This document shows, one piece after another, positions 2,304 through 21,599 of a stretch of DNA of 22,967 nucleotides (the stretch's first letter is position 1; each line of letters opens with the position of its first letter). The DNA is taken from the IMG/VR virus record IMGVR_UViG_2687453563_000005, one strand, 5' to 3'. Source of the stretch: a virus. Its lineage: Duplodnaviria > Heunggongvirae > Uroviricota > Caudoviricetes. A program made the translations under genes and the position numbers. The notes beneath the pieces were generated by a model. It was not told the DNA's origin, made no database searches, and saw nothing but the letters and a program-made list of their open reading frames with translations.

Positions 2304-3122
<819 letters not shown>

Positions 3123-3374: not shown

Positions 3375-6300
3375 TCAATGTTCGCTTCCTGTTAACTGCC
3401 CGACAAGTGCAACCAGTTCGCTTACCTGATTTTCCAGAGTGGTGATCCGGGTGCCTGCTGTTGCCAGATTTTGACGTAGCGTTGTGTTTTCCTCTTCCAG
3501 CGCGGTAACGCGATCATCTGTTTCACGGGCGACCTGAACAAGTAAGCCCGTCACGGCGGCGTAGTCAACATTCAGATAACGCGTTTCTTCACGTAATTCA
3601 TTGCCGTCAACCGTTGGTCCCTGCAACTCTTTACCGTAATGAGTGAATGAGCCTACCGCTTCCGGTATTGCCTCCATTGCTTCCTGTGCAATAACACCAG
3701 CGTAAGGCAGTCCGTTTTCCTTAAGTGTGTAGGTGTACCCGTTCATTTTACGGATAGCTTCGGTTGCGTCACTGATAATCTGAATATTGTCTTTCAGCTC
3801 GCGGTCTGATAACTGATTCAGTGTTGTACAGTTAATAGCACCGTTTACATCAAACAGCTGACCTGACGATGTTTTTTGAGCATAAAACAGATACGCGGCA
3901 GTCGTTCCAACCTCAAAAACGTTTTGTCGATCACCTGAACCCCACACCTTGACAGCAAATGGTAGTTCTGTATTACCTAAGTTCTGTAAAACAAAACGAT
4001 TGCCAGTCCCTGTTTGTTTTGTAAGGGTTAAATCAACAGTTGAGTTAACCTCATCCTTGTTGATAGTGAGCGCCTGCGCTGTAGCCCCGTTAACAGCACC
4101 TGTTTTGAGTTGAACCGCGCCGTCATTACCATTTAGCAGTATCTCAGCTCCGCTAAAGAAATTTTTTAGCGATAGCATCTTACTTACGCCGACTGATGAA
4201 CCCAACGCCCACGCGAGAGAATTACCGGTGCTATCAAACCCACGTACAAAGCAATCCATTTTGCTATAGTCTGACGTGCTTCCAAGGACATCAATCCGCC
4301 CTCCGCCAGATTTTATCGGGTTAGATGTGGTTAATGACCTGACAGCAATATCGGTAGATGAATTGAGATCGTCTACTGTTAGTAATTTCTTCCATTCCTG
4401 CGTCGTTCCATTTTCAATTGTTCTTCCCCAAAAACCGGAATTGCGGCCTCCGAACTGCACAGCATAATTTTTACTAAATTGAACATGAATGCCGCCAAGA
4501 ACCATAGAGCCTGCCGGGCCGTTTGTACTGCCTGCAATTGATCTAAATTTGTCGACGTTATCAGTATGCTGAGCGTTCCAGTCATGACCTGTTAATGTTG
4601 CAATTCCTGAGTTAGCTGTAATTAACCCAGACGCTTTAAGATTCTGCACATCAATTCTGTCGTTTGCGAAATTATATGCAATTGCGTTACTAACGCTTCC
4701 GGCATCATCATAATCGCGTTTCTGAATAAACCAGTCGCCAGCATTAGCAATGAGAGTATAAGTAGGCGTGTTAGCCGGGCGATCTGTTTCATTAAATCTT
4801 ATTGCTGGGTTAGCGCTCCTTATTTGTAAAGGTTTTTCAACCGTTGATTTCAGTATCGCACTATCTACAATTAAATTACCTTCTGAATTAAGGTTTAGAT
4901 ATTTTGAAGCACCAGTTGAACCATCGTATGTAAACCTTATTGTTAATTGACCTGGCTCATTTGATAAAGTTTCAACATACATATCAGCACCAAGACGCAC
5001 AGTGCTGTCAGTTGCTAACAGTCTTGTATGGAGAATTCCACTAGATGTGTATGTATTGGTCGAATCACTATATCTATCAAGAAATAGACTGTTAAGTTGA
5101 GGGCTGTTGTTCCTACCTAAGCCAAGATTCGTTCTGGCACCATCAACAGTTGCCGCATTAGTGCCTCCTTGTCCAATAGGTAATGGAACCCATGACGATC
5201 CGTTATGGCAACCCCACAATCCAGATGTTGACACCTGAAGTCGTGGCGCTGATGGTGAGTAATTCGAATAAACGTAAGTAGTCGATTCGCCTTCTTCAAT
5301 TCTTTCTGTTAATACTATTTTTTTCCATACACTCCAACCTTGTGTGCTGGTATATATCCTTCTATAAAGAATTGATGAATTGTTATATACAAAATAGCTC
5401 TGGATACAACCATCACTACCATTAGCACCAGTTCTTTGCACTAACAATGCACCAGCAAGCTGTATCGGGTAATTTAGTTCTGGCTTTGCGTTGGCAGACA
5501 TTGGTTGGTAATAAAAACCGGCTGTAGTACCTTTTATATCGTTTAAGTTCGTATTCGCATCAAGGCCAGTTTTTGCTTCAAACATGACTTCAAGTTTAGA
5601 GCGCGCTGTACTTGCATCATTCGCCCCTGTGCCACCTTGCGCAACTGCGAGCGGTTGCCATCTACCAGCTTTAGGGTTAAATGCGCCCCACTGACCGTCA
5701 GCATCAACCTGTAAGTAACAGCCGTCCGCCTGAACGTCAGTAGATAAAATGATGGTTCTTGTGTCGCTTGAACGCTGAAATCGGATAACCTCATCTTTTC
5801 TTGCGTGGCGTGTCCATTGCGGGCCTATTGTCGGATTCCAGCGATAAGTATAAAGCGAGCGCGTAGCCCATCCCTGAAATACACCTGTATACGCTGGTGT
5901 TCCATCTACCTGACTAATAAACCCCGTAAGACTGCTTTCACCGGATGCAATCGATGGAAATCCTTTTGCATTACTCATAATGCGCATAAATCCGATATAC
6001 CCTGATGGGTTGCCGGAAATATCAGGACAATCACGCGGGGCTGAGCCAAGACCGATATTATCGCCAACAATTAATTGCGCCTGGTTGCGATAATTAAGTG
6101 CGTCCGCCGCAGATTTCGCCGCGTTTGTTTCACTGGATTTAGCATTAGTTTCGCTGGCTTTAGCGTTTGTTTCGCTGCTCTTTGCTGCTGCCTCGCTATT
6201 TTTCGCGTTGGTTTCTGATTTTTTGGCTGCTGTCGCGGAGTTTGCCGATGCAGTTTGTGAGTCTGCTGCCGCCTGTGCGCTGTTACCCGCAATATAAAGG

Positions 6301-7082
6301 CGTCCGTCCTGCATCTGCTGCAGCTTCACTGCCCACATGCTGTTCAGGTTATTATTTGTATCAACCTGAACCTTCTGTATCTGCTGGATCGCTGCACTCT
6401 GGTCTTCCAGTTTCTTATTGACGGTCTGTGTTATTTCATTGCTGACATCCGTTATGGACGTCCTGATTTCAGTCAGGTCAGGCGCAAGCTGACCGTTATC
6501 AATCTGCGTCCACAGCTCCTGAGCCAGATGGGTTTTCCCTATCCGGATATTAAACGGGCGCGGCGGCAGGTTATCCACCACCACCGAGGCCAGATACTGC
6601 GAGGTGGTTTTGCCCTTAATGGTGATGTCTTTTTCCGTCACCCAGCCACCATTACGCTGTATCTGAACCAGCAGGCGAACTTCCGACGGATTCCGGTCCC
6701 CCTTTGAGGTGGTTTCCACCAGTGCCTGCACGCCGAAGGTAAAGCGCAGACGGTCGATGTTTGCAGACGTAATGGTGCGGGTGATCGGCGTGTCATATTT
6801 CACTTCCGTACCCAGCACCGTCTCGGAGCCGGAGGATTCAAACCCCTCCGGCGGTGTCTGCTCCTGCTCACCGGCACGGAACACCACCGTGACACCGGAG
6901 ATGTTGGTATTCCCCTCAGTGTCCAGCACCGGCGTACTGTTCAGCAGCTCGCTTTTTAATCCATCCACCGGACCTTCAACCGGCCCTTCGCTGATGGCAT
7001 CGATCACACTCAGCAGCTGCGTGGACTTCAGGTTGTCCTTCGCTTCGCGCGGGGTATGCCCCTTACTGCTGCCTTTACCCAT
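3375..7082 (-). CDS. Mosaic tail fibre protein (1235 aa): lambda J-like N-terminus, short J C-region segment, Stf-like SETNAK repeats, fibre domain, C-terminal S74-type intramolecular chaperone
   Basis: Starts MGKGSSKGHTPREAKDNLKSTQLLSVIDAISEGP... (lambda J N-terminus as recalled); then MWAVKLQQMQDGRLYIAG (J C-region-like); AAKKSETNAKNSEAAAKSSETNAKASETNAK repeats; C-terminus ...SDRELKDNIQIISDATEAIRKMNGYTYTLKENG... typical of autocleaving chaperone domain. Confidence 0.8.
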   Translation of the reverse strand: MGKGSSKGHTPREAKDNLKSTQLLSVIDAISEGPVEGPVDGLKSELLNSTPVLDTEGNTNISGVTVVFRAGEQEQTPPEGFESSGSETVLGTEVKYDTPITRTITSANIDRLRFTFGVQALVETTSKGDRNPSEVRLLVQIQRNGGWVTEKDITIKGKTTSQYLASVVVDNLPPRPFNIRIGKTHLAQELWTQIDNGQLAPDLTEIRTSITDVSNEITQTVNKKLEDQSAAIQQIQKVQVDTNNNLNSMWAVKLQQMQDGRLYIAGNSAQAAADSQTASANSATAAKKSETNAKNSEAAAKSSETNAKASETNAKSSETNAAKSAADALNYRNQAQLIVGDNIGLGSAPRDCPDISGNPSGYIGFMRIMSNAKGFPSIASGESSLTGFISQVDGTPAYTGVFQGWATRSLYTYRWNPTIGPQWTRHARKDEVIRFQRSSDTRTIILSTDVQADGCYLQVDADGQWGAFNPKAGRWQPLAVAQGGTGANDASTARSKLEVMFEAKTGLDANTNLNDIKGTTAGFYYQPMSANAKPELNYPIQLAGALLVQRTGANGSDGCIQSYFVYNNSSILYRRIYTSTQGWSVWKKIVLTERIEEGESTTYVYSNYSPSAPRLQVSTSGLWGCHNGSSWVPLPIGQGGTNAATVDGARTNLGLGRNNSPQLNSLFLDRYSDSTNTYTSSGILHTRLLATDSTVRLGADMYVETLSNEPGQLTIRFTYDGSTGASKYLNLNSEGNLIVDSAILKSTVEKPLQIRSANPAIRFNETDRPANTPTYTLIANAGDWFIQKRDYDDAGSVSNAIAYNFANDRIDVQNLKASGLITANSGIATLTGHDWNAQHTDNVDKFRSIAGSTNGPAGSMVLGGIHVQFSKNYAVQFGGRNSGFWGRTIENGTTQEWKKLLTVDDLNSSTDIAVRSLTTSNPIKSGGGRIDVLGSTSDYSKMDCFVRGFDSTGNSLAWALGSSVGVSKMLSLKNFFSGAEILLNGNDGAVQLKTGAVNGATAQALTINKDEVNSTVDLTLTKQTGTGNRFVLQNLGNTELPFAVKVWGSGDRQNVFEVGTTAAYLFYAQKTSSGQLFDVNGAINCTTLNQLSDRELKDNIQIISDATEAIRKMNGYTYTLKENGLPYAGVIAQEAMEAIPEAVGSFTHYGKELQGPTVDGNELREETRYLNVDYAAVTGLLVQVARETDDRVTALEEENTTLRQNLATAGTRITTLENQVSELVALVGQLTGSEH

Positions 7083-7142
7083 TCCTCACGCTCCATAAAT
7101 GACAAAACCGCCCGCAGGCGGTTTCACATAAAACATTTTGCA

Positions 7143-8069
7143 TCAGCGACCAATCACCACAACCTGACCACCGTCCCCTTCGTCTGCCGTGCTGATCTCC
7201 TGAGAAACCACGCGAGACCCCACGCGCATTTCCCCGTACAGAACAGGCAGAACATTGCCCTGGGCAACCATGTTATCCAGTGAGGAGAAATAGGTGTTCT
7301 GCTTACCGTTATCCGTTGTCTGTGTACGGGGAGTTCTGGCTTTCGGTGCCAGCATCTGCGCCACACCACCGAGCACCATACTGGCACCGAGAGAAAACAG
7401 GATGCCGGTCATACCACCGGTCCCAATGGCTGCCCCCCATGCTGCAAGGGTGGCTCCGGCGGTAAAGAATGATCCGGCAATGGCGGCAGCCCCCAGGACA
7501 ATCTGGAATACGCCACCTGACTTGGCCCCGGCGACTCTGGGAACAATATGAATCACAGCGCCATCAGGCAGAGTCTCATGTAACTGCGCCGTTAATATGT
7601 GCTGTTTGAGTTGACTTTCTTTTGCCGCATAGCCGTCACTTTTGCCGCGATATGGCCCCTGGTAATGTTCAGCAAACAGAACGCGTTCTGTTGCGGGAAA
7701 ATATGCGCGCAGACTTTCTTTATTACACCCGTTCCATCGTCCGGACGGCTTCGCCCAGATAATATGGTTAAGAACGTTGAAACGTTCACGCATCATGATC
7801 TCGATATCAGATGCGAGGCGATGTCCACAGAACAGGTAAAGGCTTCCGGCAGGTTTCAGCACCCGCCAGAACTGAGCCAGACAGTGGTCCAGCCACTTCA
7901 GGTAATCTTCGTCCCCTTTCCACTGATTGTCCCAGCCGTTGGGTTTCACCTTGAAGTACGGCGGATCGGTAACAATCAGGTCAATGGAATCATCAGGCAG
8001 GGACTGAATAAAATGCAGGCAATCAGCGTTGATTAAATCAACACTGTTTATTTTTACAGTATTTTTCAT
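7143..8069 (-). pseudogene. In-frame chimera: N-terminal fragment of a DNA N6A/N4C methyltransferase (~160 aa, DPPY motif) fused to C-terminal ~145 aa of lambda-like tail assembly protein I; junction near 7590
   Basis: N-part has IVTDPPYF and post-motif-IV region but no downstream FxGxG SAM motif; C-part TAQLHETLPDGAVIHIVPRVAGAKSGGVFQIVLGAAAIAG...VVVIGR matches lambda gpI C-terminus as recalled; lies immediately upstream of the J-like gene as I does in lambda. Confidence 0.65.
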
Positions 8070-8218
8070 GGATCAGTAAGCGTAACTCTGGTAGGCTCAC
8101 TCTGCTTTTGCGCTAAAGCAGTGGGCCGTGGTTCGCTTGTGACCAGTAAGCATGAGCGAATGGCTGGCAGGTGCTACCAACACCCACCAGCCGCCCATTT
8201 TCACAAATTAAAAGCCCT

Positions 8219-8413
8219 TCATTGCTGAAGGCGTCTGTAACAGCCGAACTGGTAATCTGCCAGCCCCGCCATAACCAACTGGGTCAGTATTAACTGACAG
8301 CGTTCGCGTGAAAGGTATGTGTTTTGTGCAATCTCCCCGACTGTTGCCGGTTCGATGCTTAATTCATTAAAAACAACTTTCGCCGTTTCTGTCATATCTT
8401 GCTGTTTTAGCAT
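8219..8413 (-). CDS. Small hypothetical protein (64 aa), possible winged-helix fold; divergent from KAP NTPase gene
   Basis: ORF only; no recognisable motif; could also be a remnant of a deleted late gene. Confidence 0.3.
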   Translation of the reverse strand: MLKQQDMTETAKVVFNELSIEPATVGEIAQNTYLSRERCQLILTQLVMAGLADYQFGCYRRLQQ

Positions 8414-8536
8414 GTCTTTTTACCTTCATGGTTAACATGACATACCAATAACTCTTGTCTAAAAAGCCAGCAAGATAAAAAATCAGTATTCACTACCACC
8501 AGCGTGTTTACCGTACTGCACCAGGTTTACAGGTAC

Positions 8537-8562
8537 AAAAAAACCCGCTCGACAGCGGGTTT
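8537..8562 (-). terminator. Hairpin with 7-nt U-run on the minus-strand transcript
   Basis: aaaaaaacccgctcgacagcgggttt: 6-bp GC stem, 4-nt loop, A7 on plus strand giving U7 on minus strand. Confidence 0.4.
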
Positions 8563-8685
8563 AAGCTGTGTGGCGAAGTAACCACTCTTAACAGATTACA
8601 AGAATTTTTGCGGACCGCGTTAATGATTTTTAATCCCAAAGTCGTATTATTCGTTTTTTACTGTAGGAGTTAATAGGTTTATATT

Positions 8686-10017
8686 ATGTTAGATACACTA
8701 TCTTTCACTGAACGTGACGAGTTCCAACGAAGAAACATCGCTGAAAATATCATCAAGTTGCTAAAACCAGAGGCAGACATTTCACCACTGGTAATAGACG
8801 GCGCATGGGGAACAGGGAAAACAGAATTTAGTATCAAACTGAAAAATCTCATTATTGAGCAAGAAACTGAATCTAAAGTTGTTTATATTGATGCCTTTAA
8901 AGGGGATCATGCAGAATCTCCATTACTTCTCATAACCTCTGCAATTGCCAGCATTTTGCCTGAGGAAGAAAAACAACACTTCATTAAGAGATCTCTTCCT
9001 GCAATTCGCTTTGGTTTAAAAACGGTACTAAAAGCTGGTGCAGGTTGGTTTTTACGACAGGAGGCTAGTGAAGTTGCCGAAGAATTCCAAGATGCGATGA
9101 AGAAAGCAAGCAATGCAGCAATAGATGGGACTATTGAAAATTTGCTTGAAGACCATATGGACTCAGAGAAAAACATAAATTCACTTAAATCCTGCATCGA
9201 AAGCATATCAAAAAATCAAAAAATCGTAATTATAATTGATGAATTAGACCGATGTAAGCCGAGTTTTTCAACAAATGTCATTGAAACAATAAAACACATT
9301 TTTGACATCAATAATGTCTTTTTTATTTTAGTTACAAACACAGAACAATTAAAAGCATCTATAAATCATATTTATGGTTATAGCATTAACTCACAAAAGT
9401 ATCTTGACAAGTTTATAAAATATACCATCACGCTTCCAGATACATGTTTGATAAATGGTCACAACGTATGTAAAGCCTCTGTTATATATTGGGATTACCT
9501 TGTAGAAAAAACAAGGTTATTGAATAAAATCAATAGATTATCAGGTTACTTTATCCGTGATTTAATTCAACGAACCAACTTATCATTACGTGAAACACAA
9601 ACATTTTCACGCAATCTTAACATTTTCCAACTGTTAAACGACGATGAGAACAAAAGCAGTGATCCTTTAATAAATATGATCTTTGTCGTAGCTGCCTTCA
9701 TACATTGCTTTGGTAACAAGGAAAAACTAAAACAAGAAATTACCGCTGAATCTATATCTTATTTAGCAGACCTGCTTAACATAAAAGAAATACCTTATTC
9801 TTATGAGAGAAGATCGCAAATCCCTGAAATATCGATTGTATTCTTCGGAATAATTAAAGACAGTATTACTCTTAATGAGCGATTTGCCCCTAAAAGTGAT
9901 GAAGAACTTAAAAAATTCACAAATGTTTATACTGATTATGAACACATAAATTTTTGGAGTACTACACCCAGAGAGTTATTGATAAAATATATTAATCAAA
10001 TGTCATTCATCCAGTAA
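8686..10017 (+). CDS. KAP-family P-loop NTPase (443 aa), AT-rich, apparently soluble
   Basis: Walker A GAWGTGKT near residue 40; Walker B-like VIIIDELDRC near residue 185; composition far more AT-rich than flanking phage genes; opposite strand to the Q operon. Confidence 0.8.
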   Translation: MLDTLSFTERDEFQRRNIAENIIKLLKPEADISPLVIDGAWGTGKTEFSIKLKNLIIEQETESKVVYIDAFKGDHAESPLLLITSAIASILPEEEKQHFIKRSLPAIRFGLKTVLKAGAGWFLRQEASEVAEEFQDAMKKASNAAIDGTIENLLEDHMDSEKNINSLKSCIESISKNQKIVIIIDELDRCKPSFSTNVIETIKHIFDINNVFFILVTNTEQLKASINHIYGYSINSQKYLDKFIKYTITLPDTCLINGHNVCKASVIYWDYLVEKTRLLNKINRLSGYFIRDLIQRTNLSLRETQTFSRNLNIFQLLNDDENKSSDPLINMIFVVAAFIHCFGNKEKLKQEITAESISYLADLLNIKEIPYSYERRSQIPEISIVFFGIIKDSITLNERFAPKSDEELKKFTNVYTDYEHINFWSTTPRELLIKYINQMSFIQ

Positions 10018-10047
10018 ATAATACGCCCCATGCAGGGGCGTATTATT
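10016..10047. terminator. Bidirectional rho-independent terminator shared by KAP gene and Q (overlaps Q stop codon)
   Basis: aaataatacgcccc-atgca-ggggcgtattatt: 13-bp perfect inverted repeat with 5-nt loop, A/T-rich on both sides. Confidence 0.6.
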
Positions 10048-10414
10048 AAACGTCCAAATCTAATGTTAGATCTAGCATGGAAAGGCAGCCATCAATAAAT
10101 CCTTCGGCTAGCTGTATTTCTATACGTATCAATTTCTCATCTTTTTTACGAGCCTTGGCGAGCTTTCTTTTAGAGATACCGTATAGGTAATGGGCAACAA
10201 GAAGCGAATGTTCGTCCGGCCTTTTTTGCTTTAGATGAGCAAGACAACCTTCAATAATTAAGGCATCACTATCCGAACAAGCCAAGCGTTTCTTGCTTGT
10301 ATAGGGAAGAAGTCCCTTAAACCCAGCGGCTATAGGTGAATAATCAACGCCTGAACTATCACTCGCCGCCCATGCCCCCCAACGCTCCAGAACCATCTGA
10401 ATATCACGCATCAA
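10046..10414 (-). CDS. Late-gene antitermination protein Q (phage 82/21-type Q family, 122 aa)
   Basis: MMRDIQMVLERWGAWAA...SPIAAGFKGLLP... resembles QuuD-type antiterminators as recalled; last gene of the cro-to-Q operon. Confidence 0.75.
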   Translation of the reverse strand: MMRDIQMVLERWGAWAASDSSGVDYSPIAAGFKGLLPYTSKKRLACSDSDALIIEGCLAHLKQKRPDEHSLLVAHYLYGISKRKLAKARKKDEKLIRIEIQLAEGFIDGCLSMLDLTLDLDV

Positions 10415-10428
10415 CTTTCTCCACCAAA

Positions 10429-11424
10429 TCAGGCTAGCACACCAATTGCCAACACACGGTCGATAAAACGAAATATCAGCTCCAGCTGGGAGCCATACTT
10501 CTCTTCAAATGCCACGGTATCCGCATGCAGCTCGTCGTGATGCTTTCTGCACAAAGGCAACACAAAGAGGTCATGCGCTTTTGTACTCATTCCCCCCTGA
10601 CCGTGGCCTATCAGGTGGTGGGGATCATCAGCAGGCTTTCCACAACATGCACACGGCTGTGTCTTAACCCAGCGCGTGTACTTTTCATTAACCCAGCGGC
10701 GACGTTTGGGGCGTAACATAAAAGACTCCGGCGACTCCGGTTCCACTTTCAGCGCCAGCACCTTTTTCGCTTTATCCTGCATGATGCTGGTGGCTGGAAC
10801 CGAAGGCACAAGGTCACTTTCCCGGGTGACAGACGGCACAACAGGCTTCGGTAATCTCAGTGCCTTACGGGCTGCGCTTTCCGGTAAGGCATCCGCCAGA
10901 TCATTACGAACCAGCCACCAGCACAGTTCCGGCATTGTCACAACGTGACTATCATCAAAACCGAGATCCCGACGCACAACAGACAACACCCAGCGGGCAC
11001 AGTTATCCGTTGCCATTGATTCCAGCCGTTCCGTGAACTGATCGCGCAGTTGGTTATCGCAGTGCCAGCACAGACGGATTGCGCCAGGCGCGTGTCGCAT
11101 TGTGGTCATGTTCTCGCTGTGCCAGTTGGAATGAGGCCACTGGCAGCCTTTTTCACGAAGTAACCAGCTTTCAAGACATTCCACGCCACCAGCACGACGG
11201 ATCACTGCCTCATTGCGGAACACGGCCCGAACGGCAGGATCATCCGCCAGCGGTTGTGATGCCGCCGGAACGGCACCACTGGCGAAAGATGAATAACGTT
11301 CCGGCTCAGGCTCCAGCAGTACACGCCCCTGCATAAACAGGGGCATCAACTCTGAACCTGGCCTGAACAATACGATCCCCATACGCGGGGCAATTTCAGG
11401 GGTCAGTAGTGCTCTCACGGTCAC
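10429..11424 (-). CDS. Phage protein with C-terminal HNH/zinc-finger-like motif (DUF968/NinG-like), 331 aa; GTG start as drawn, true start uncertain
   Basis: C-terminal CACCGKPADDPHHLIGHGQGGMSTKAHDLFVLPLCRKHHDELH has Cys/His spacing typical of HNH-type modules; nin-region position. Confidence 0.55.
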   Translation of the reverse strand: MTVRALLTPEIAPRMGIVLFRPGSELMPLFMQGRVLLEPEPERYSSFASGAVPAASQPLADDPAVRAVFRNEAVIRRAGGVECLESWLLREKGCQWPHSNWHSENMTTMRHAPGAIRLCWHCDNQLRDQFTERLESMATDNCARWVLSVVRRDLGFDDSHVVTMPELCWWLVRNDLADALPESAARKALRLPKPVVPSVTRESDLVPSVPATSIMQDKAKKVLALKVEPESPESFMLRPKRRRWVNEKYTRWVKTQPCACCGKPADDPHHLIGHGQGGMSTKAHDLFVLPLCRKHHDELHADTVAFEEKYGSQLELIFRFIDRVLAIGVLA

Positions 11425-12967: not shown

Positions 12968-13617
12968 GCCGCCATCTCCCTGACCAGTTTTTCTGCCTGC
13001 TGGCGAATCTGCGCCAGAAAGGCCTCACCACATGCCTCAAGTTCATCGCGCCCGATGTAGCTGATTGCCGGTCCCTTCCAGGTCTTGTCGAAAACAGCAA
13101 TAGCACCAGCGAAGAAAGCGCCTGTCGGCACCTGCTTCTCATCCTTCGGGATAAACCAGGCAGGCAGTTCAAAACCAATACGCCCGCGAATAAAAGCAAT
13201 ATGATCTACATCTTCCGGCCACCACACTTCGCTGGTGGCAGCTTTGATCAGGAAAACATAGCGCCCGCCTTTATCACGCATGGCACTGGCATGCTTCATG
13301 ATGTAACGCATGCCGGTGATGTATTGCCCCTCATGCTGACTGGCGCGGCTGTATGGGGGATTACCAAAGGCAGCACCTTTAAGCTCCGCAAGGCGTTCTG
13401 ACCAGTCATGCGCCAGCGCGTTGTCTTCCGCCGTGTAATACGCAGCACATTTGGCGTTATCACCGTCAGTGAACAGATCCAGAACAAACGGGCCAAACAG
13501 GGTGTTAATTCCCCAGAAAATGTTGTCCGGCGTGCGCCACTGATCGCCCACTTCCTTCAGTTCATGGGCTGGTTTGTTCCGCAGTTCCACCAGCGCCTGG
13601 CAATATTTATTACTCAT
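12964..13617 (-). CDS. Phage orphan DNA N6-adenine methyltransferase (Dam-like), ~217 aa
   Basis: FGNPPYS motif IV and overall phage Dam-family resemblance; start ATG at 13615..13617 overlaps upstream stop; no adjacent restriction gene. Confidence 0.8.
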   Translation of the reverse strand: MSNKYCQALVELRNKPAHELKEVGDQWRTPDNIFWGINTLFGPFVLDLFTDGDNAKCAAYYTAEDNALAHDWSERLAELKGAAFGNPPYSRASQHEGQYITGMRYIMKHASAMRDKGGRYVFLIKAATSEVWWPEDVDHIAFIRGRIGFELPAWFIPKDEKQVPTGAFFAGAIAVFDKTWKGPAISYIGRDELEACGEAFLAQIRQQAEKLVREMAA

Positions 13618-13907
13618 TAAGCCCCCACGTAATTCCCTGAGAGATACCACTCTTCACCTGATGCAGCCCGCTTACCCTGGCGACGCGCCTTACGCGTTAA
13701 CCAGCCTTCTGCTTCCAGCCGTGCGATAGCCGTTCTGACGGTACTCATCCCCGCGCCAATCTGACGGGCAATGGTTTCAATTGATGGCCAGCACACACCT
13801 TCGTCATTACTGAAATCAGCCAGGCGGGCCATAATTGCCACGCTGGATAACTTCATGCCTGATGCAGCGCAACCATCCCATACATAGCCGGTTAATTTAG
13901 TGCTCAT
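13617..13907 (-). CDS. Small winged-helix DNA-binding protein (96 aa), possibly replication- or regulation-related
   Basis: SIETIARQIGAGMSTVRTAIARLEAEGWL HTH-like segment; function not assignable from sequence alone. Confidence 0.5.
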   Translation of the reverse strand: MSTKLTGYVWDGCAASGMKLSSVAIMARLADFSNDEGVCWPSIETIARQIGAGMSTVRTAIARLEAEGWLTRKARRQGKRAASGEEWYLSGNYVGA

Positions 13908-15144: not shown

Positions 15145-15771
15145 ATGGAAACGGTTGGTCAGCGTATAAAAGCTCTGAGAAGAGTTACCAGAACGTCCCA
15201 GAAAGAATTGGGTAAATTTTGTGGAGTAAGCGACGTTGCTGTGGGGTACTGGGAGAAAGACATCAATACCCCTGGTGGGGAGGCACTTTCGAAATTAGCG
15301 AAGTTCTTCAATACGTCAATAGATTACATTCTTTATGGTGCTGAGTTTGAAGGCAAACTCGTCACAAACATGCGCAGAGTTCCTGTAATATCGTGGGTTC
15401 AGGCTGGGCAGTTTACTGAGTGCAGGGCAGCAGAAGTGTTTAGTGAAGTGGACAAGTGGGTAGATACATCATTAAAGGTTGGTGATAACTCATTTGCATT
15501 AGAGGTTAAAGGTGACTCCATGACTAACCCTAATGGCCTCCCAACAATACCAGAAGGCGCAACAGTGATTGTAGATCCAGATGCAGAACCTCGTCATGGA
15601 AAAATAGTCATCGCTCGACTTGATGGAACAAACGAAGCTACAGTAAAAAAATTAGTCATCGATGGCCCTCAAAAGTTTTTAGTACCATTAAATCCTCGGT
15701 ATCCCAACATCCCTATCAATGGTAATTGCCTTATCATTGGTGTAGTCAAAGGAGTTCAATACGAACTCTAA
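15145..15771 (+). CDS. CI-type prophage repressor: XRE HTH plus LexA-like S24 peptidase domain (208 aa)
   Basis: N-terminal HTH (IKALRRVTRTSQKELGKFCGVSDVAVGYWE) and C-terminal autocleavage domain with GDSM serine motif and downstream Lys (VKKLV). Confidence 0.9.
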   Translation: METVGQRIKALRRVTRTSQKELGKFCGVSDVAVGYWEKDINTPGGEALSKLAKFFNTSIDYILYGAEFEGKLVTNMRRVPVISWVQAGQFTECRAAEVFSEVDKWVDTSLKVGDNSFALEVKGDSMTNPNGLPTIPEGATVIVDPDAEPRHGKIVIARLDGTNEATVKKLVIDGPQKFLVPLNPRYPNIPINGNCLIIGVVKGVQYEL

Positions 15772-16523: not shown

Positions 16524-16855
16524 GTTGAATACTCAGCTAGTTGTTGGGGATATCCAGATTAACCAAATCCTTGTTGTTGGGGAATAACTAGGTCCACCTC
16601 GCCTGATGTGGCTAAAAGCAGGCACATAACAGCTAAGTATTTTCAACCAGAGAGAATCCTTAGCGTTGTGGTGAATGCGGCTCAGCGCACGCGGGTTAAG
16701 GTTGAGGCTGACAGTCGACCTTCTGTGGATACCCACCCGCCTGGTGTGCAACCTTCGCCAGGCACCGGGAGGCACCCGGCACCACAACTTTATGCTGTGT
16801 GTAGTCCTCGCGGTACCAGTTTGTACACTTGCTTCCGGCTGGTACCGCTCTTTTT

Positions 16856-16944
16856 ACAAAACAGAGAAGAACATCACCGGACGACGGGCTCATAACCCAA
16901 TCCATCCGGGCGGCTGCCACCGCAGGTGTTCTTCTCTGTTTTGT
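16856..16944. repeat. 18-bp perfect inverted repeat (acaaaacagagaagaaca / tgttcttctctgttttgt) enclosing ~53 bp; a second 9-bp inverted repeat (cggtaccag/ctggtaccg) lies just upstream at 16811..16848
   Basis: Read directly from the sequence; located about 50 nt upstream of the YfdP-like start. Confidence 0.6.
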
Positions 16945-20469: not shown

Positions 20470-21509
20470 AGGCTGAAGCATGGCGGGTCAGCAAACTTGG
20501 TGAAATACCTGATATAACGTTCGAGGAAGCGTGTGTCAGGTGGCTTGAAGAGAAAGCACATAAAAAATCACTGGACGATGACAAAAGCCGGATCGGATTC
20601 TGGCTTCAACATTTCGCAGGAATGCAACTAAGAGACATTACTGAATCAAAAATTTATTCAGCAATGCAGAAAATGACGAACCGGCGTCATGAGGAAAACT
20701 GGAAACTCAGGGCAGAAGCATGCAGAAAAAAAGGGAAACCTGTTCCAGAATACACGCCAAAACCAGCGTCCGTTGCAACGAAGGCTACGCATCTTTCATT
20801 TATAAAGGCCCTACTAAGAGCCGCAGAGCGTGAATGGAAAATGCTGGATAAGGCACCAATTATTAAAGTGCCTCAACCAAAGAATAAACGGATCCGCTGG
20901 CTGGAGCCCCATGAAGCACAAAGGCTGATTGATGAATGTCCGGAGCCATTAAAGTCTGTTGTTGAATTTGCACTGGCAACAGGCTTAAGACGCTCGAACA
21001 TCATCAACCTTGAATGGCAACAAATAGATATGCAGCGCCGGGTGGCATGGATAAACCCAGAAGAGAGTAAATCAAACCGCGCAATCGGCGTTGCGCTGAA
21101 TGATACTGCATGTCGCGTTTTGAAAAAACAAATCGGGAATCATCACCGTTGGGTATTTGTGTACAAGGAAAGCTGTACCAAACCAGACGGAACGAAAGCG
21201 CCAACAGTAAGGAAGATGCGGTATGACGCAAACACAGCCTGGAAAGCGGCGCTGAGACGGGCTGGTATTGATGATTTCAGATTTCACGACTTGAGACACA
21301 CCTGGGCAAGTTGGCTGGTTCAAGCCGGAGTCCCGTTGTCAGTGTTACAGGAAATGGGAGGCTGGGAGTCTATCGAAATGGTTCGTCGATATGCTCACCT
21401 TGCACCTAATCACCTTACCGAACACGCACGGCAAATAGACTCGATCCTGAACCCATCGGTCCCAAATTTGTCCCAGTCAAAAAATAAGGAAGGTACTAAT
21501 GATGTGTAA
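20346..21509 (+). CDS. int: Tyrosine integrase, P22-Int-like (387 aa)
   Basis: N-terminus [48 protein letters not shown] and catalytic HDLRHTWAS...RRYAHL motifs; GAGGAA Shine-Dalgarno; next to thrW, the P22 attachment site. Confidence 0.9.
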
Positions 21510-21523
21510 CTTATTGATTTAAA

Positions 21524-21569
21524 TGGTGCCGATAATAGGAGTCGAACCTACGACCTTCGCATTACGAAT
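21524..21569. other. Probable att core overlapping the 3' portion of thrW; extent approximate
   Basis: Integrase 3' end lies 15 bp from the tRNA 3' end; P22-type att cores overlap the tRNA 3' part by about 46 bp; partner copy not found in the window. Confidence 0.4.
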
Positions 21570-21599
21570 GCGCTGCTCTACCAACTGAGCTATATCGGC
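21524..21599 (-). tRNA. thrW: tRNA-Thr (anticodon CGT), thrW
   Basis: Reverse complement gccgatatagctcagttggtagagcagcgcattcgtaatgcgaaggtcgtaggttcgactcctattatcggcacca folds as a 76-nt cloverleaf with CGT anticodon and CCA end. Confidence 0.9.

What the first reader, a model, noticed from the sequence alone, without database searches (positions are those of the whole stretch)
7143..8069. In-frame methyltransferase::tail-protein-I fusion marks the breakpoint of a large deletion
A single ORF begins with a DPPY-motif DNA methyltransferase N-terminus that lacks its SAM-binding motif and ends with the C-terminus of a lambda-like tail assembly protein I, directly upstream of the J-like gene. This is the footprint of a deletion that removed the rest of the methylase, lysis, packaging, head and most tail genes, which would explain why the prophage is cryptic. 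The fusion keeps reading frame, so a chimeric protein may still be made.
Basis: partly seen in the sequence, partly recalled or inferred. Interest (0 to 1): 0.5.

Follow-up and report, generated by a model that had tools for sequence, protein, structure and literature searches.

The report
Deletion scar fusing two prophage genes
A roughly 19-kb deletion in a decaying E. coli prophage joined the front half of a DNA methylase gene, in frame, to the back two-thirds of a lambda tail gene; this is an ordinary decay scar, but the same prophage family has strikingly repeatable deletion end-points beside its replication origin.

Summary
Window 7143..8069 (minus strand) is one 308-codon ORF. Codons 1-158 are identical to the first 158 of a 350-aa prophage N6/N4 DNA methyltransferase. 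Codons 159-308 match lambda gpI residues 74-223.

The junction lies exactly at 7595|7596, on a codon boundary, with no microhomology. An intact relative at the same thrW/proA site carries 19,064 bp between the two break-points: the rest of the methylase, lysis, packaging, head and tail genes up to K, and the start of I. Only near-identical copies of this fusion cover both halves, so it is a deletion scar and not a natural two-domain protein.

The scar is lineage-specific. It appears in at least 24 draft or metagenome contigs and in none of 5,426 complete RefSeq genomes.

It was not the first lesion: the neighbouring J gene was already a double in-frame chimera. It is not the last either: the window has a second scar at 13672-13675.

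Expression was not tested. The ORF is the second gene behind a late-promoter-like and terminator-like pair.

Side result, more interesting than the finding: dozens of independent deletions in this prophage family, including E. coli K-12 CPS-53 yfdO, start at two nucleotide-precise sites next to the ori iterons. Eleven of 12 DNA-defined scars are in frame.

The parts
7143..8069 (-). Chimeric ORF, 308 aa, about 33.6 kDa: methyltransferase(1-158)::gpI(lambda residues 74-223)
7596..8069 (-). Methyltransferase-derived part (codons 1-158). It keeps motif IV (DPPY, aa 35-38) and lacks the C-terminal half with motif I (FFMGSGST, aa 309 of the 350-aa parent).
   Evidence: 100% aa identity to WP_000799667 residues 1-158. 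DNA is 99.9% identical to L001/L004. Pfam profile positions 1-104 of 221 only.
7143..7595 (-). gpI-derived part (codons 159-308 plus stop). It equals the last 150 of the 190 aa annotated in relatives, which is lambda gpI residues 74-223. It contains the hydrophobic helices H1/H2, the plug and the beta-strands. The N-terminal domain is lost.
   Evidence: Identical to the C-terminus of I in L002; PDB 8IYK_I alignment; hydrophobic segments around aa 188-206 and 224-233; domain description from PMC11101478
7595..7596 (.). Deletion junction D1: a blunt join without microhomology, falling between codons 158 and 159. It removes 19,064 bp relative to the intact relative L004 (L004 937..20000).
3375..7082 (-). 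J-like gene immediately downstream, itself a chimera. It comprises the J N-terminus (7082..6541), a J middle piece (6543..6284) and an Stf-like tail fibre with an S74 chaperone domain (6291..3375). Both internal junctions are in frame, and the internal J deletion is 1,920 bp.
8219..8413 (-). 64-aa ORF (weak winged-helix matches) that precedes the methylase gene in intact relatives too
8541..8673 (-). Promoter-like hexamers (8673..8646) followed by a strong terminator-like hairpin with a T-run (8562..8541). The arrangement looks like a lambdoid late promoter PR' with its terminator tR', upstream of ORF64, the fusion and the J chimera. This reading is an inference.
   Evidence: The number of promoter-like sites in the region does not exceed the shuffled controls, so only the position is suggestive.
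8686..10017 (+). KAP-family P-loop NTPase on the opposite strand, between Q and the late-promoter-like element. It is also present in intact relatives.
10046..10414 (-). Antiterminator Q family gene (the annotation of the matching gene in relatives; Pfam Phage_antitermQ in the loci). It would be needed for read-through into the fusion ORF.
13617..13907 (-). Second deletion scar in the window: O-like replication protein(1-78)::PerC(last 18 aa), in frame. The junction lies at 13672-13675 (TTAC microhomology), and 1,135 bp are missing, including the ori iterons.
21524..21599 (-). tRNA-Thr (CGT) next to proA. Relatives annotate a tRNA-Thr and proA at the same position beside their prophage, so this marks the prophage end.

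Best explanation
The ORF is the scar of a single illegitimate (homology-independent) deletion of about 19 kb inside a lambdoid prophage integrated next to the tRNA-Thr gene beside proA.

One break fell after codon 158 of the late-operon N6/N4 DNA methyltransferase gene. The other fell before lambda-numbering codon 74 of tail gene I. The ends were joined blunt, at a codon boundary, so one 308-codon frame runs through the joint.

The deletion removed:
- the methylase C-terminal half, including the SAM-binding motif I;
- holin, endolysin and Rz;
- two accessory (non-core) genes;
- both terminase subunits, portal, protease, and the head decoration and capsid genes;
- all tail genes through K;
- the N-terminal domain of I.

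The product cannot be a methyltransferase, because half of the fold and the cofactor site are gone. It cannot act in tail assembly, because no tail is left. If made at all, it would be a 33.6-kDa protein carrying the hydrophobic H1/H2 helices and plug of gpI behind a truncated methylase domain. It would be transcribed only when the retained Q protein antiterminates the late-promoter-like unit upstream (inferred).

The scar arose once, in a prophage whose J gene was already a chimera. It has been inherited in one E. coli lineage, where further deletions have since nibbled the early region.
For: **Each half matches a separate intact gene.**
- Methylase side: 99.9% DNA identity and 100% protein identity over 158 aa.
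- I side: 99.97% DNA identity to L002 and identical protein over 150 aa.

**An intact relative has the missing genes.** L004, at the same tRNA-Thr/proA site, has 19,064 bp and about 24 genes between the two points.

**No natural two-domain homologue.** Among 2,134 homologues, only a protein differing from this fusion by one residue (P0016) spans both halves.

**The junction is not an assembly artefact.** The exact 308-aa protein is in NCBI as a 'hypothetical protein' and was found on 24 contigs from NCBI, ENA and Logan.

**Order of events.**
- L005, L007, L008, L009 and L014 carry the fusion with an intact O-like gene and PerC, so this deletion predates the window's second one.
- L002 keeps L-K-I together with the same J chimera, so the J chimera predates the fusion.

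**Domain content:** Pfam and PDB results.
Against: There is no direct evidence against the explanation.

Caveats:
- The true ancestor is not in hand. The 19,064-bp figure and the gene list come from a relative whose I/J region is only 94.9% identical.
- Accessory-gene content between the lysis genes and the terminase differs among relatives.
- With no microhomology at the joint, the joining mechanism is undetermined.
- Expression and any activity of the chimera are untested.
Confidence: 0.95

Rival explanations
1. The ORF is a genuine single two-domain protein (methylase-like N-terminus plus gpI-like C-terminus) of an intact phage type.
For: The frame is continuous and the ORF starts with the natural methylase start codon.
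Against: - All other hits cover only one half.
- Both halves are truncated versions of complete Pfam domains.
- Intact relatives separate the two halves by 19 kb.
- Carrier loci have no head, packaging or lysis genes.
Confidence: 0.01
2. The junction is an assembly or scaffolding artefact that joined two contigs of one prophage.
For: None of 5,426 complete RefSeq E. coli genomes carries the junction.
Against: - The same exact protein and junction occur on 24 contigs from independent NCBI, ENA and Logan assemblies, up to 139.8 kb long.
- A shorter annotation of the same fusion (P0011) sits on a 4.86-Mb record.
- There is no shared repeat at the junction that could mislead an assembler.
Confidence: 0.02
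3. The scar has been co-opted. The in-frame chimera is expressed and kept by selection, for example as a membrane-active or exclusion factor using the gpI H1/H2 helices, or to keep translation and so transcription running into the downstream J/tail-fibre chimera.
For: - The frame is kept exactly at a codon boundary.
- 11 of 12 DNA-defined scars in this prophage family are in frame (and the annotations).
- The fusion is unchanged (at most one amino-acid difference) across carriers, while the early region keeps decaying.
- The repressor, Q and a late-promoter-like element are retained.
Against: - The carriers are nearly clonal (99.97-100% DNA identity), so conservation says little.
- The sample for the in-frame bias is small, and the bias is partly expected from stop-codon constraints on TAA/TAG-containing microhomologies (my reasoning).
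- Sister lineages L003 and L016 have deleted the I region altogether.
- There are no expression data.
Confidence: 0.06

Closest known systems
E. coli K-12 cryptic prophage CPS-53 (KpLE1): the yfdM / tail-fibre junction and the N-terminally truncated O-like (yfdO) pseudogene
   Same: It is a remnant of the same prophage family, sharing yfdN (PerC), the O-like gene and yfdP-yfdT. It has a methyltransferase fragment abutting a tail-fibre fragment, and a truncated O-like gene. The break in its O-like gene is at the same nucleotide-precise site as the window's second scar.
   Different: The K-12 methylase fragment is the Dam-like early gene (yfdM), not the late N6/N4 methylase. The junction partners differ. 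K-12 lacks the MTase::I fusion.
Bacteriophage lambda tail tip protein gpI (PDB 8IYK, 8XCG)
   Same: Residues 159-308 of the fusion equal lambda gpI 74-223, with two substitutions. This stretch covers H1/H2, the plug (159-175) and the beta-strands that thread through gpJ (PMC11101478).
   Different: Residues 1-73 of the N-terminal domain are lost. There is no K, L, M or H, and no intact J to assemble with.
Prophage late-operon beta-class N6/N4 DNA methyltransferase, 350 aa (WP_000799667; Pfam PF01555; distant structural relatives include M.RsrI 1NW8)
   Same: The first 158 residues are identical, including DPPY. The upstream context is the same: Q, KAP NTPase, 64-aa ORF.
   Different: Residues 159-350, including motif I, are lost.
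Survivors of 'replicative killing' (RK-) of non-excisable lambda prophages (Hayes laboratory)
   Same: This is an experimentally established selection for mutations and deletions that inactivate O, P or ori in trapped prophages (PMC6022878). It gives a rationale for why so many scars in this family end in the O-like gene.
   Different: It concerns the early-region scars (window 13672), not the MTase::I junction. Nucleotide-precise recurrent end-points did not turn up in the papers I searched.

Membership tests
N6/N4 DNA methyltransferase (Pfam PF01555, beta class) | Catalytic motif IV (D/S)PP(Y/F) | tested here: met
   DPPY at aa 35-38
N6/N4 DNA methyltransferase (Pfam PF01555, beta class) | Complete methyltransferase domain | tested here: not met
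   Only profile positions 1-104 of 221 match. The full-length relative matches 1-220.
N6/N4 DNA methyltransferase (Pfam PF01555, beta class) | AdoMet-binding motif I (FxGxG) | tested here: not met
   FFMGSGST lies at aa 309-316 of the 350-aa parent, and the fusion ends the methylase part at aa 158.
N6/N4 DNA methyltransferase (Pfam PF01555, beta class) | DNA methylation activity | not testable with these tools
   Would need methylome sequencing or an enzyme assay. Activity is expected to be absent.
Lambda tail tip assembly protein I | N-terminal domain (Pfam PF06805 Lambda_tail_I) | tested here: not met
   Only profile positions 57-83 of 83 match, at 23.7 bits against a cut-off of 23.8. Intact I scores 68.8 bits. 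Lambda residues 1-73 are missing.
Lambda tail tip assembly protein I | C-terminal H1/H2 helices, plug and beta-strand region | tested here: met
   aa 159-308 align with lambda gpI 74-223, with two differences, E = 9.9e-90.
Lambda tail tip assembly protein I | Gene order K-I-J within a complete tail module | tested here: not met
   K, L, M, H and the other upstream tail genes are absent. The downstream J is an internally deleted chimera.
Deletion scar (fused pseudogene) in a defective prophage | Each side of the joint is collinear and near-identical to separate genes of intact relatives, with intervening DNA present there | tested here: met
   99.9% and 99.97% DNA identity; 19,064 bp intervening in L004 at the same attachment site
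Deletion scar (fused pseudogene) in a defective prophage | No independent (divergent) homologues with the fused architecture | tested here: met
   Only P0016, which differs by one residue, covers 100% of the query. The other listed hits cover about 50%. Only the best 120 of 2,134 hits were listed, but two-half hits would outrank one-half hits.

The most novel reading that the evidence does not exclude
The fusion may be one product of a non-random decay process in this prophage family, not a random accident. Two observations suggest this.

(i) Fixed scars are overwhelmingly in frame: 11 of 12, including this one. That hints at selection for uninterrupted translation through the prophage operons.

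(ii) Many deletions start at two nucleotide-precise sites, CAGGGTA|ACCGC and ACGGCTA|TCGCA. Both lie in the O-like replication gene, about 55 and 110 bp from the ori iterons.

The two sites could be origin-specific nicks or RNA-DNA primer transition points. These would turn into double-strand ends when a trapped prophage fires its origin. The phage's own origin would then drive its domestication.
Probability: 0.25. Interest if true: 0.65.

Novelty: new member of a known kind. Interest (0 to 1): 0.25.

Why it matters
The fusion itself matters little. It is a textbook prophage-decay scar. It is useful as a lineage marker and as a warning that 'DNA methylase' or 'tail assembly protein' annotations of this ORF are wrong.

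What could matter is the context it led to. Closely related strains, 99.97-100% identical in the flanks, carry at least nine different deletions of one prophage. Almost all are in frame.

More than 80 distinct truncated or fused proteins in public data (82 of about 107 scored), including E. coli K-12 yfdO, break at two exact positions next to the ori iterons. If that reflects a site-specific nick or primer start at a lambdoid origin, two things become directly testable:
- how trapped prophages are disarmed;
- possibly, where leading-strand synthesis starts in this origin type.

Tried and rejected
- **Hot spot at methylase codon 158: rejected.** Other methylase-N::X chimeras in E. coli (fused to Rz, K, Lom, protease, J, lysozyme, tail-fibre assembly) break at about aa 163, 184, 203, 211, 219, 244, 284, 296 and 304.
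- **I-side 'chimeras' P0017-P0020 and P0024: not relevant.** They are internal duplications of I, not fusions.
- **Hairpin or cruciform at the O-gene hot spots: no support.** Folds are weak, with z-scores from -1.7 to +0.4 against shuffles.
- **Sequence-specific cutters (my comparison of recalled recognition and cut positions with the junctions).** None places the cut where the junctions require it, which is after GGGTA on the coding strand. Checked:
  - BstEII-type GGTNACC;
  - EcoRII/Dcm-Vsr CCWGG (an EcoRII system sits next to one remnant);
  - RusA cutting 5' of CC;
  - IS608-type cleavage 3' of TTAC;
  - I-TevI CNNNG;
  - Hin/Gin-type crossover sites;
  - integron GTTRRRY.
- **IS-mediated adjacent deletion: rejected.** No IS is left at any junction. 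One fusion (P0165) appears, from my recollection of the IS3 orfA sequence, to join to the interior of IS3 orfA and not to an IS end.
- **Promoter scan.** The number of sigma-70-like sites in 6900-10500 is not above shuffled controls. Only the position of one site next to a strong terminator is suggestive.
- **Rfam.** Nothing matches near the fusion.
- **Literature.** No description of the hot spots was found.
- **Not run.** Structure prediction and the all-representatives HMM search were skipped, because the DNA-level evidence was already decisive.

Full report
**1. What is there**

The window carries a 308-codon ORF on the minus strand at 7143..8069.

Pfam finds two truncated domains in it:
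- The first 104 of 221 profile positions of N6_N4_Mtase, at aa 29-133 (E = 1.7e-16).
- The last 27 positions of the 83-position Lambda_tail_I model, at aa 157-182. The score is 23.7 bits, just under the 23.8-bit cut-off.

The intact relatives of each half give full matches: methylase 1-220 of 221, and gpI at 68.8 bits.

DPPY (motif IV) is at aa 35-38. The AdoMet motif FFMGSGST lies at aa 309 of the 350-aa parent and is missing.

Against solved structures, aa 159-308 align with phage lambda gpI residues 74-223 with two substitutions (E = 9.9e-90, PDB 8IYK chain I). The strand is minus.

**2. The junction**

Megablast against 5,426 complete E. coli genomes splits the region cleanly:
- Window 7596..8450 matches prophages with a full-length 350-aa methylase at 99.9%.
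- Window 6700..7595/6 matches intact tail I-J junctions at 99.9%.
- No complete genome spans the joint.

I aligned the window to its closest parents: L002 for the I side (99.97%) and L004 for the methylase side (99.9%). The switch falls between 7595 and 7596, with no shared bases.

In the reading frame this lies between codon 158 (Ile, last methylase residue) and codon 159 (Leu; residue 41 of the 190-aa annotated I, residue 74 in lambda numbering). The methylase part is identical to the parent over all 158 residues. The I part is identical to the last 150 residues of I in L002.

**3. What was deleted**

Strain VTB97432v (L004) carries an apparently complete relative next to the same tRNA-Thr gene beside proA, with the same early region (99.9% over 6 kb). 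In it the two break-points are 19,064 bp apart.

The interval holds:
- the methylase C-terminal half;
- essD, rrrD and the Rz-like lysis gene;
- two accessory (non-core) genes;
- small and large terminase, head-tail joining protein, portal, S49 protease, decoration and major capsid proteins, FI and FII;
- the tail genes down to L and K;
- the first 40 annotated codons of I.

The size and gene list are estimates. The true ancestor is not available, and accessory-gene content varies among relatives.

**4. Test of the refuting condition**

A search of 5.8 billion proteins with the fusion gave 2,134 hits. The only other protein covering the whole query is P0016, which differs by one residue. All other listed hits cover about 49-52%, meaning one half only. 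There is no sign of a natural protein with this architecture.

**5. Reality, spread and order of events**

The exact protein is in NCBI (for example EFD2088067.1, 'hypothetical protein'). It was read on 24 contigs from NCBI, ENA and Logan assemblies. A shorter annotation of the same fusion lies on a 4.86-Mb record. It is therefore not an assembly artefact.

Carrier loci are 99.97-100% identical to the window, apart from one metagenome contig (L011) with a mosaic early region.

Five carrier loci (L005, L007, L008, L009, L014) still have the intact O-like gene (313 aa) and PerC (164 aa). The MTase::I deletion therefore came first. The window's 1,135-bp HTH::PerC deletion at 13672-13675 came later.

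Other carriers have their own secondary deletions:
- L006: O-like::RusA.
- L010: ymfL::O-like.
- L012: ORF112::KilA-N.
- L013: KilA-N/DUF968.

Sister remnants at the same site lack the MTase::I joint and have different large deletions:
- L002: L::O-like, which keeps K and I.
- L003: O-like::tail fibre.
- L016: DUF4222::J.

L002 and L016 share the J chimera with the window. L003 keeps only its tail-fibre part. The chimera consists of the J N-terminus, a J middle piece and an Stf-like fibre, with both joints in frame. The prophage was therefore already tail-defective before the event under study.

**6. How it would work, if at all**

*Shown:* the frame is open from the natural methylase start to the natural I stop.

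*Inferred:*
- The ORF is the second gene after a promoter-like site (8673..8646) and a strong terminator-like hairpin (8562..8541). These resemble a lambdoid late promoter PR' and its terminator tR'.
- They lie downstream of the Q gene (10046..10414).
- A KAP NTPase gene is inserted on the other strand, as in intact relatives.
- An S24/LexA-type repressor gene is retained at 15145..15771 (annotation of the matching gene in relatives). Transcription would therefore follow SOS derepression and Q antitermination.

The product (33.6 kDa) lacks half of the methylase fold and the cofactor site. I infer from the domain results that it cannot methylate.

It keeps the part of gpI that forms two hydrophobic helices, the lumen plug and the strands that thread through gpJ in lambda (PMC11101478). 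With no tail to join, that part has no assembly role. Membrane activity is conceivable but untested.

**7. Comparison with what is known**

This is the usual way prophages decay. The closest textbook analogue is E. coli K-12 CPS-53/KpLE1, a remnant of the same family. It has a methylase fragment (yfdM) abutting a tail-fibre fragment, and a truncated O-like gene.

The fusion should not be filed as a methyltransferase, because the complete domain and motif I were tested and not met. It should not be filed as a tail assembly protein either, because the N-terminal domain and the K-I-J context were tested and not met. It meets all tested criteria of a deletion scar.

**8. What else turned up (beyond the finding)**

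*(a) In-frame bias.* Twelve scars were defined at DNA level. Eleven are in frame (annotations):
- D1 (the MTase::I junction);
- D2 (the window's HTH::PerC junction);
- the internal J deletion;
- the J::Stf junction;
- the scars of L002, L003, L006, L010, L012, L016 and P276M.

Only L013 is out of frame. The chance of at least 11 of 12 is 4.7e-5 if one third are expected in frame, and 3.2e-3 if one half are. One half is a fairer null for joints that contain TAA or TAG. The sample is small and was not drawn at random.

*(b) Two precise deletion end-points in the O-like gene.* The window's second scar, L003, L006, L010 and K-12 yfdO all break at one spot in the O-like replication gene. P276M breaks about 5 bp away. 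On the plus strand the site reads GCGGT|TACCCTGG, and on the coding strand CAGGGTA|ACCGC. It lies after codon 78.

In a 60-row sample taken at even steps down the ranking of complete genomes, all 12 truncated matches of this gene ended at query positions 317-325.

I then searched with the 78 N-terminal residues. Of about 107 scored short proteins that share the identical N-terminus (sequences):
- 55 diverge right after residues 78-80, with 44 distinct tails among the 46 that diverge right after residue 78;
- 27 diverge after residues 60-62, at the second site ACGGCTA|TCGCA, which L002 also uses.

The first base of the next codon is A in 54 of 55 cases at the first site.

Partners include RusA, DUF968, KilA-N, Q, small and large terminase, gpW and the late methylase. 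One (P0165) appears to be the interior of IS3 orfA, judged from my recollection of that sequence. Most partners carry ...GG.TA at the joint, and the same partner sites recur with both hot spots.

Events that keep the other side of the break also exist at both sites: K-12 and L010 at the first, P0257 at the second.

Three further loci, in different prophages, read CGCCAGGGTA| and then diverge. One of these prophages has a myovirus-type late region.

Both sites lie 8-10 bp from iteron-half-site-like xGACGx. They are about 55 and 110 bp from an array of at least six 15-bp iterons with an adjacent AT-rich stretch, the presumed ori.

*Mechanism: my best guess, at low confidence.* The sites may be a site-specific nick or an origin-specific primer RNA-DNA transition. 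This would become a double-strand end when a non-excisable prophage fires its origin. The end would then be joined through short imperfect microhomology. Survivors would be selected as in 'replicative killing' (PMC6022878).

I found no description of this in the papers searched.

**9. Verdict**

The junction is refined to 7595|7596. The finding itself is ordinary, a new example of a known kind. The recurrent ori-proximal end-points and the in-frame bias deserve separate study.

Noticed in passing
window 13672-13675 (= L004 27216/27217), and a second site at window about 13725 (= L004 27269/27270): There are two nucleotide-precise, recurrent deletion end-points in the O-like (HTH_36) replication gene: CAGGGTA|ACCGC after codon 78, and ACGGCTA|TCGCA after codon 60/61. 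They are used by the window's HTH::PerC scar, L002, L003, L006, L010 and E. coli K-12 CPS-53 yfdO, with P276M breaking about 5 bp away. About 80 distinct truncated or fused proteins in public data also break there. Both sides of the break are found retained. The sites lie about 55 and 110 bp from the ori iterons (L004 27003-27159). The mechanism is unexplained.
   Followed up: partly
window 7595|7596, 13672, 6541-6543 and 6284-6291; loci L002, L003, L006, L010, L012, L013, L016, L018: Eleven of 12 deletion scars defined at DNA level in this prophage family keep the reading frame. Only L013 does not. P = 4.7e-5 against an expectation of one third, and 3e-3 against one half. The sample is small and was not drawn at random.
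   Followed up: partly
window 3375-7082 (minus strand): The 'J-like' gene is a triple chimera: J aa 1-~181, J aa ~822-908, and an Stf-like tail fibre with an S74 intramolecular-chaperone domain. Both joints are in frame, and the J::Stf joint has an 8-nt microhomology (GCGGGTAA). The left end-point of the L003 deletion (window 6288) coincides with this joint.
   Followed up: partly
L002, L003, L016, L005-L014 (same tRNA-Thr/proA locus): Strains with 99.97-100% identical flanks carry at least nine different deletions of the same prophage. This is an unusually dense decay series within one lineage.
   Followed up: partly
proteins P0021-P0036, P0066, P0071, P0106: Many other E. coli proteins fuse the N-terminal part of the same late methylase to Rz, Rz1, K, Lom, head protease, J, lysozyme or tail-fibre assembly protein. 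The break-points are scattered between aa 163 and 304, so the methylase gene is a frequent but not site-specific deletion end-point.
   Followed up: partly
L011 (ENA ERZ27293264 contig k141_14387): The identical MTase::I junction sits behind a different early module (Ash, a 272-aa HTH_36 protein, no Dam). This suggests recombination with another lambdoid phage after the scar formed.
   Followed up: no
window 8686-10017 (plus strand): A KAP-family P-loop NTPase (443 aa) is inserted on the opposite strand between Q and the late-promoter-like element. It is conserved in intact relatives and could be a defence-type accessory gene.
   Followed up: no
window 2349-3122 (plus strand) and 1171-1939: A LEM-3-like GIY-YIG nuclease gene lies next to a truncated tail-fibre assembly gene, with an IS1 copy close by.
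   Followed up: no
window 16635-16857 (plus strand): There is an Rfam match to sRNA STnc100 (49.1 bits, gathering score 47) in the early-left region of the prophage.
   Followed up: no
L021 8804-11480 and L022 5553-8229: In another remnant that breaks at the first hot spot, a Dcm-like methylase plus EcoRII restriction enzyme and a SIR2-like gene lie just beyond the tail-fibre genes. The hot spot lies next to a CCWGG site, but the EcoRII cut position does not fit the junctions.
   Followed up: partly
proteins P0017-P0020, P0024: Variants of gpI carry internal tandem duplications of 48-100 residues across the hydrophobic helices. They occur on single contigs and could be real or assembly errors.
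   Followed up: no
window 21506-21569 and L002 1501-1564: A 64-bp exact repeat overlaps the 3' part of the tRNA-Thr gene. Its second copy lies about 550 bp beyond the left end of the window. It is probably the attL/attR pair that bounds the whole island.
   Followed up: no
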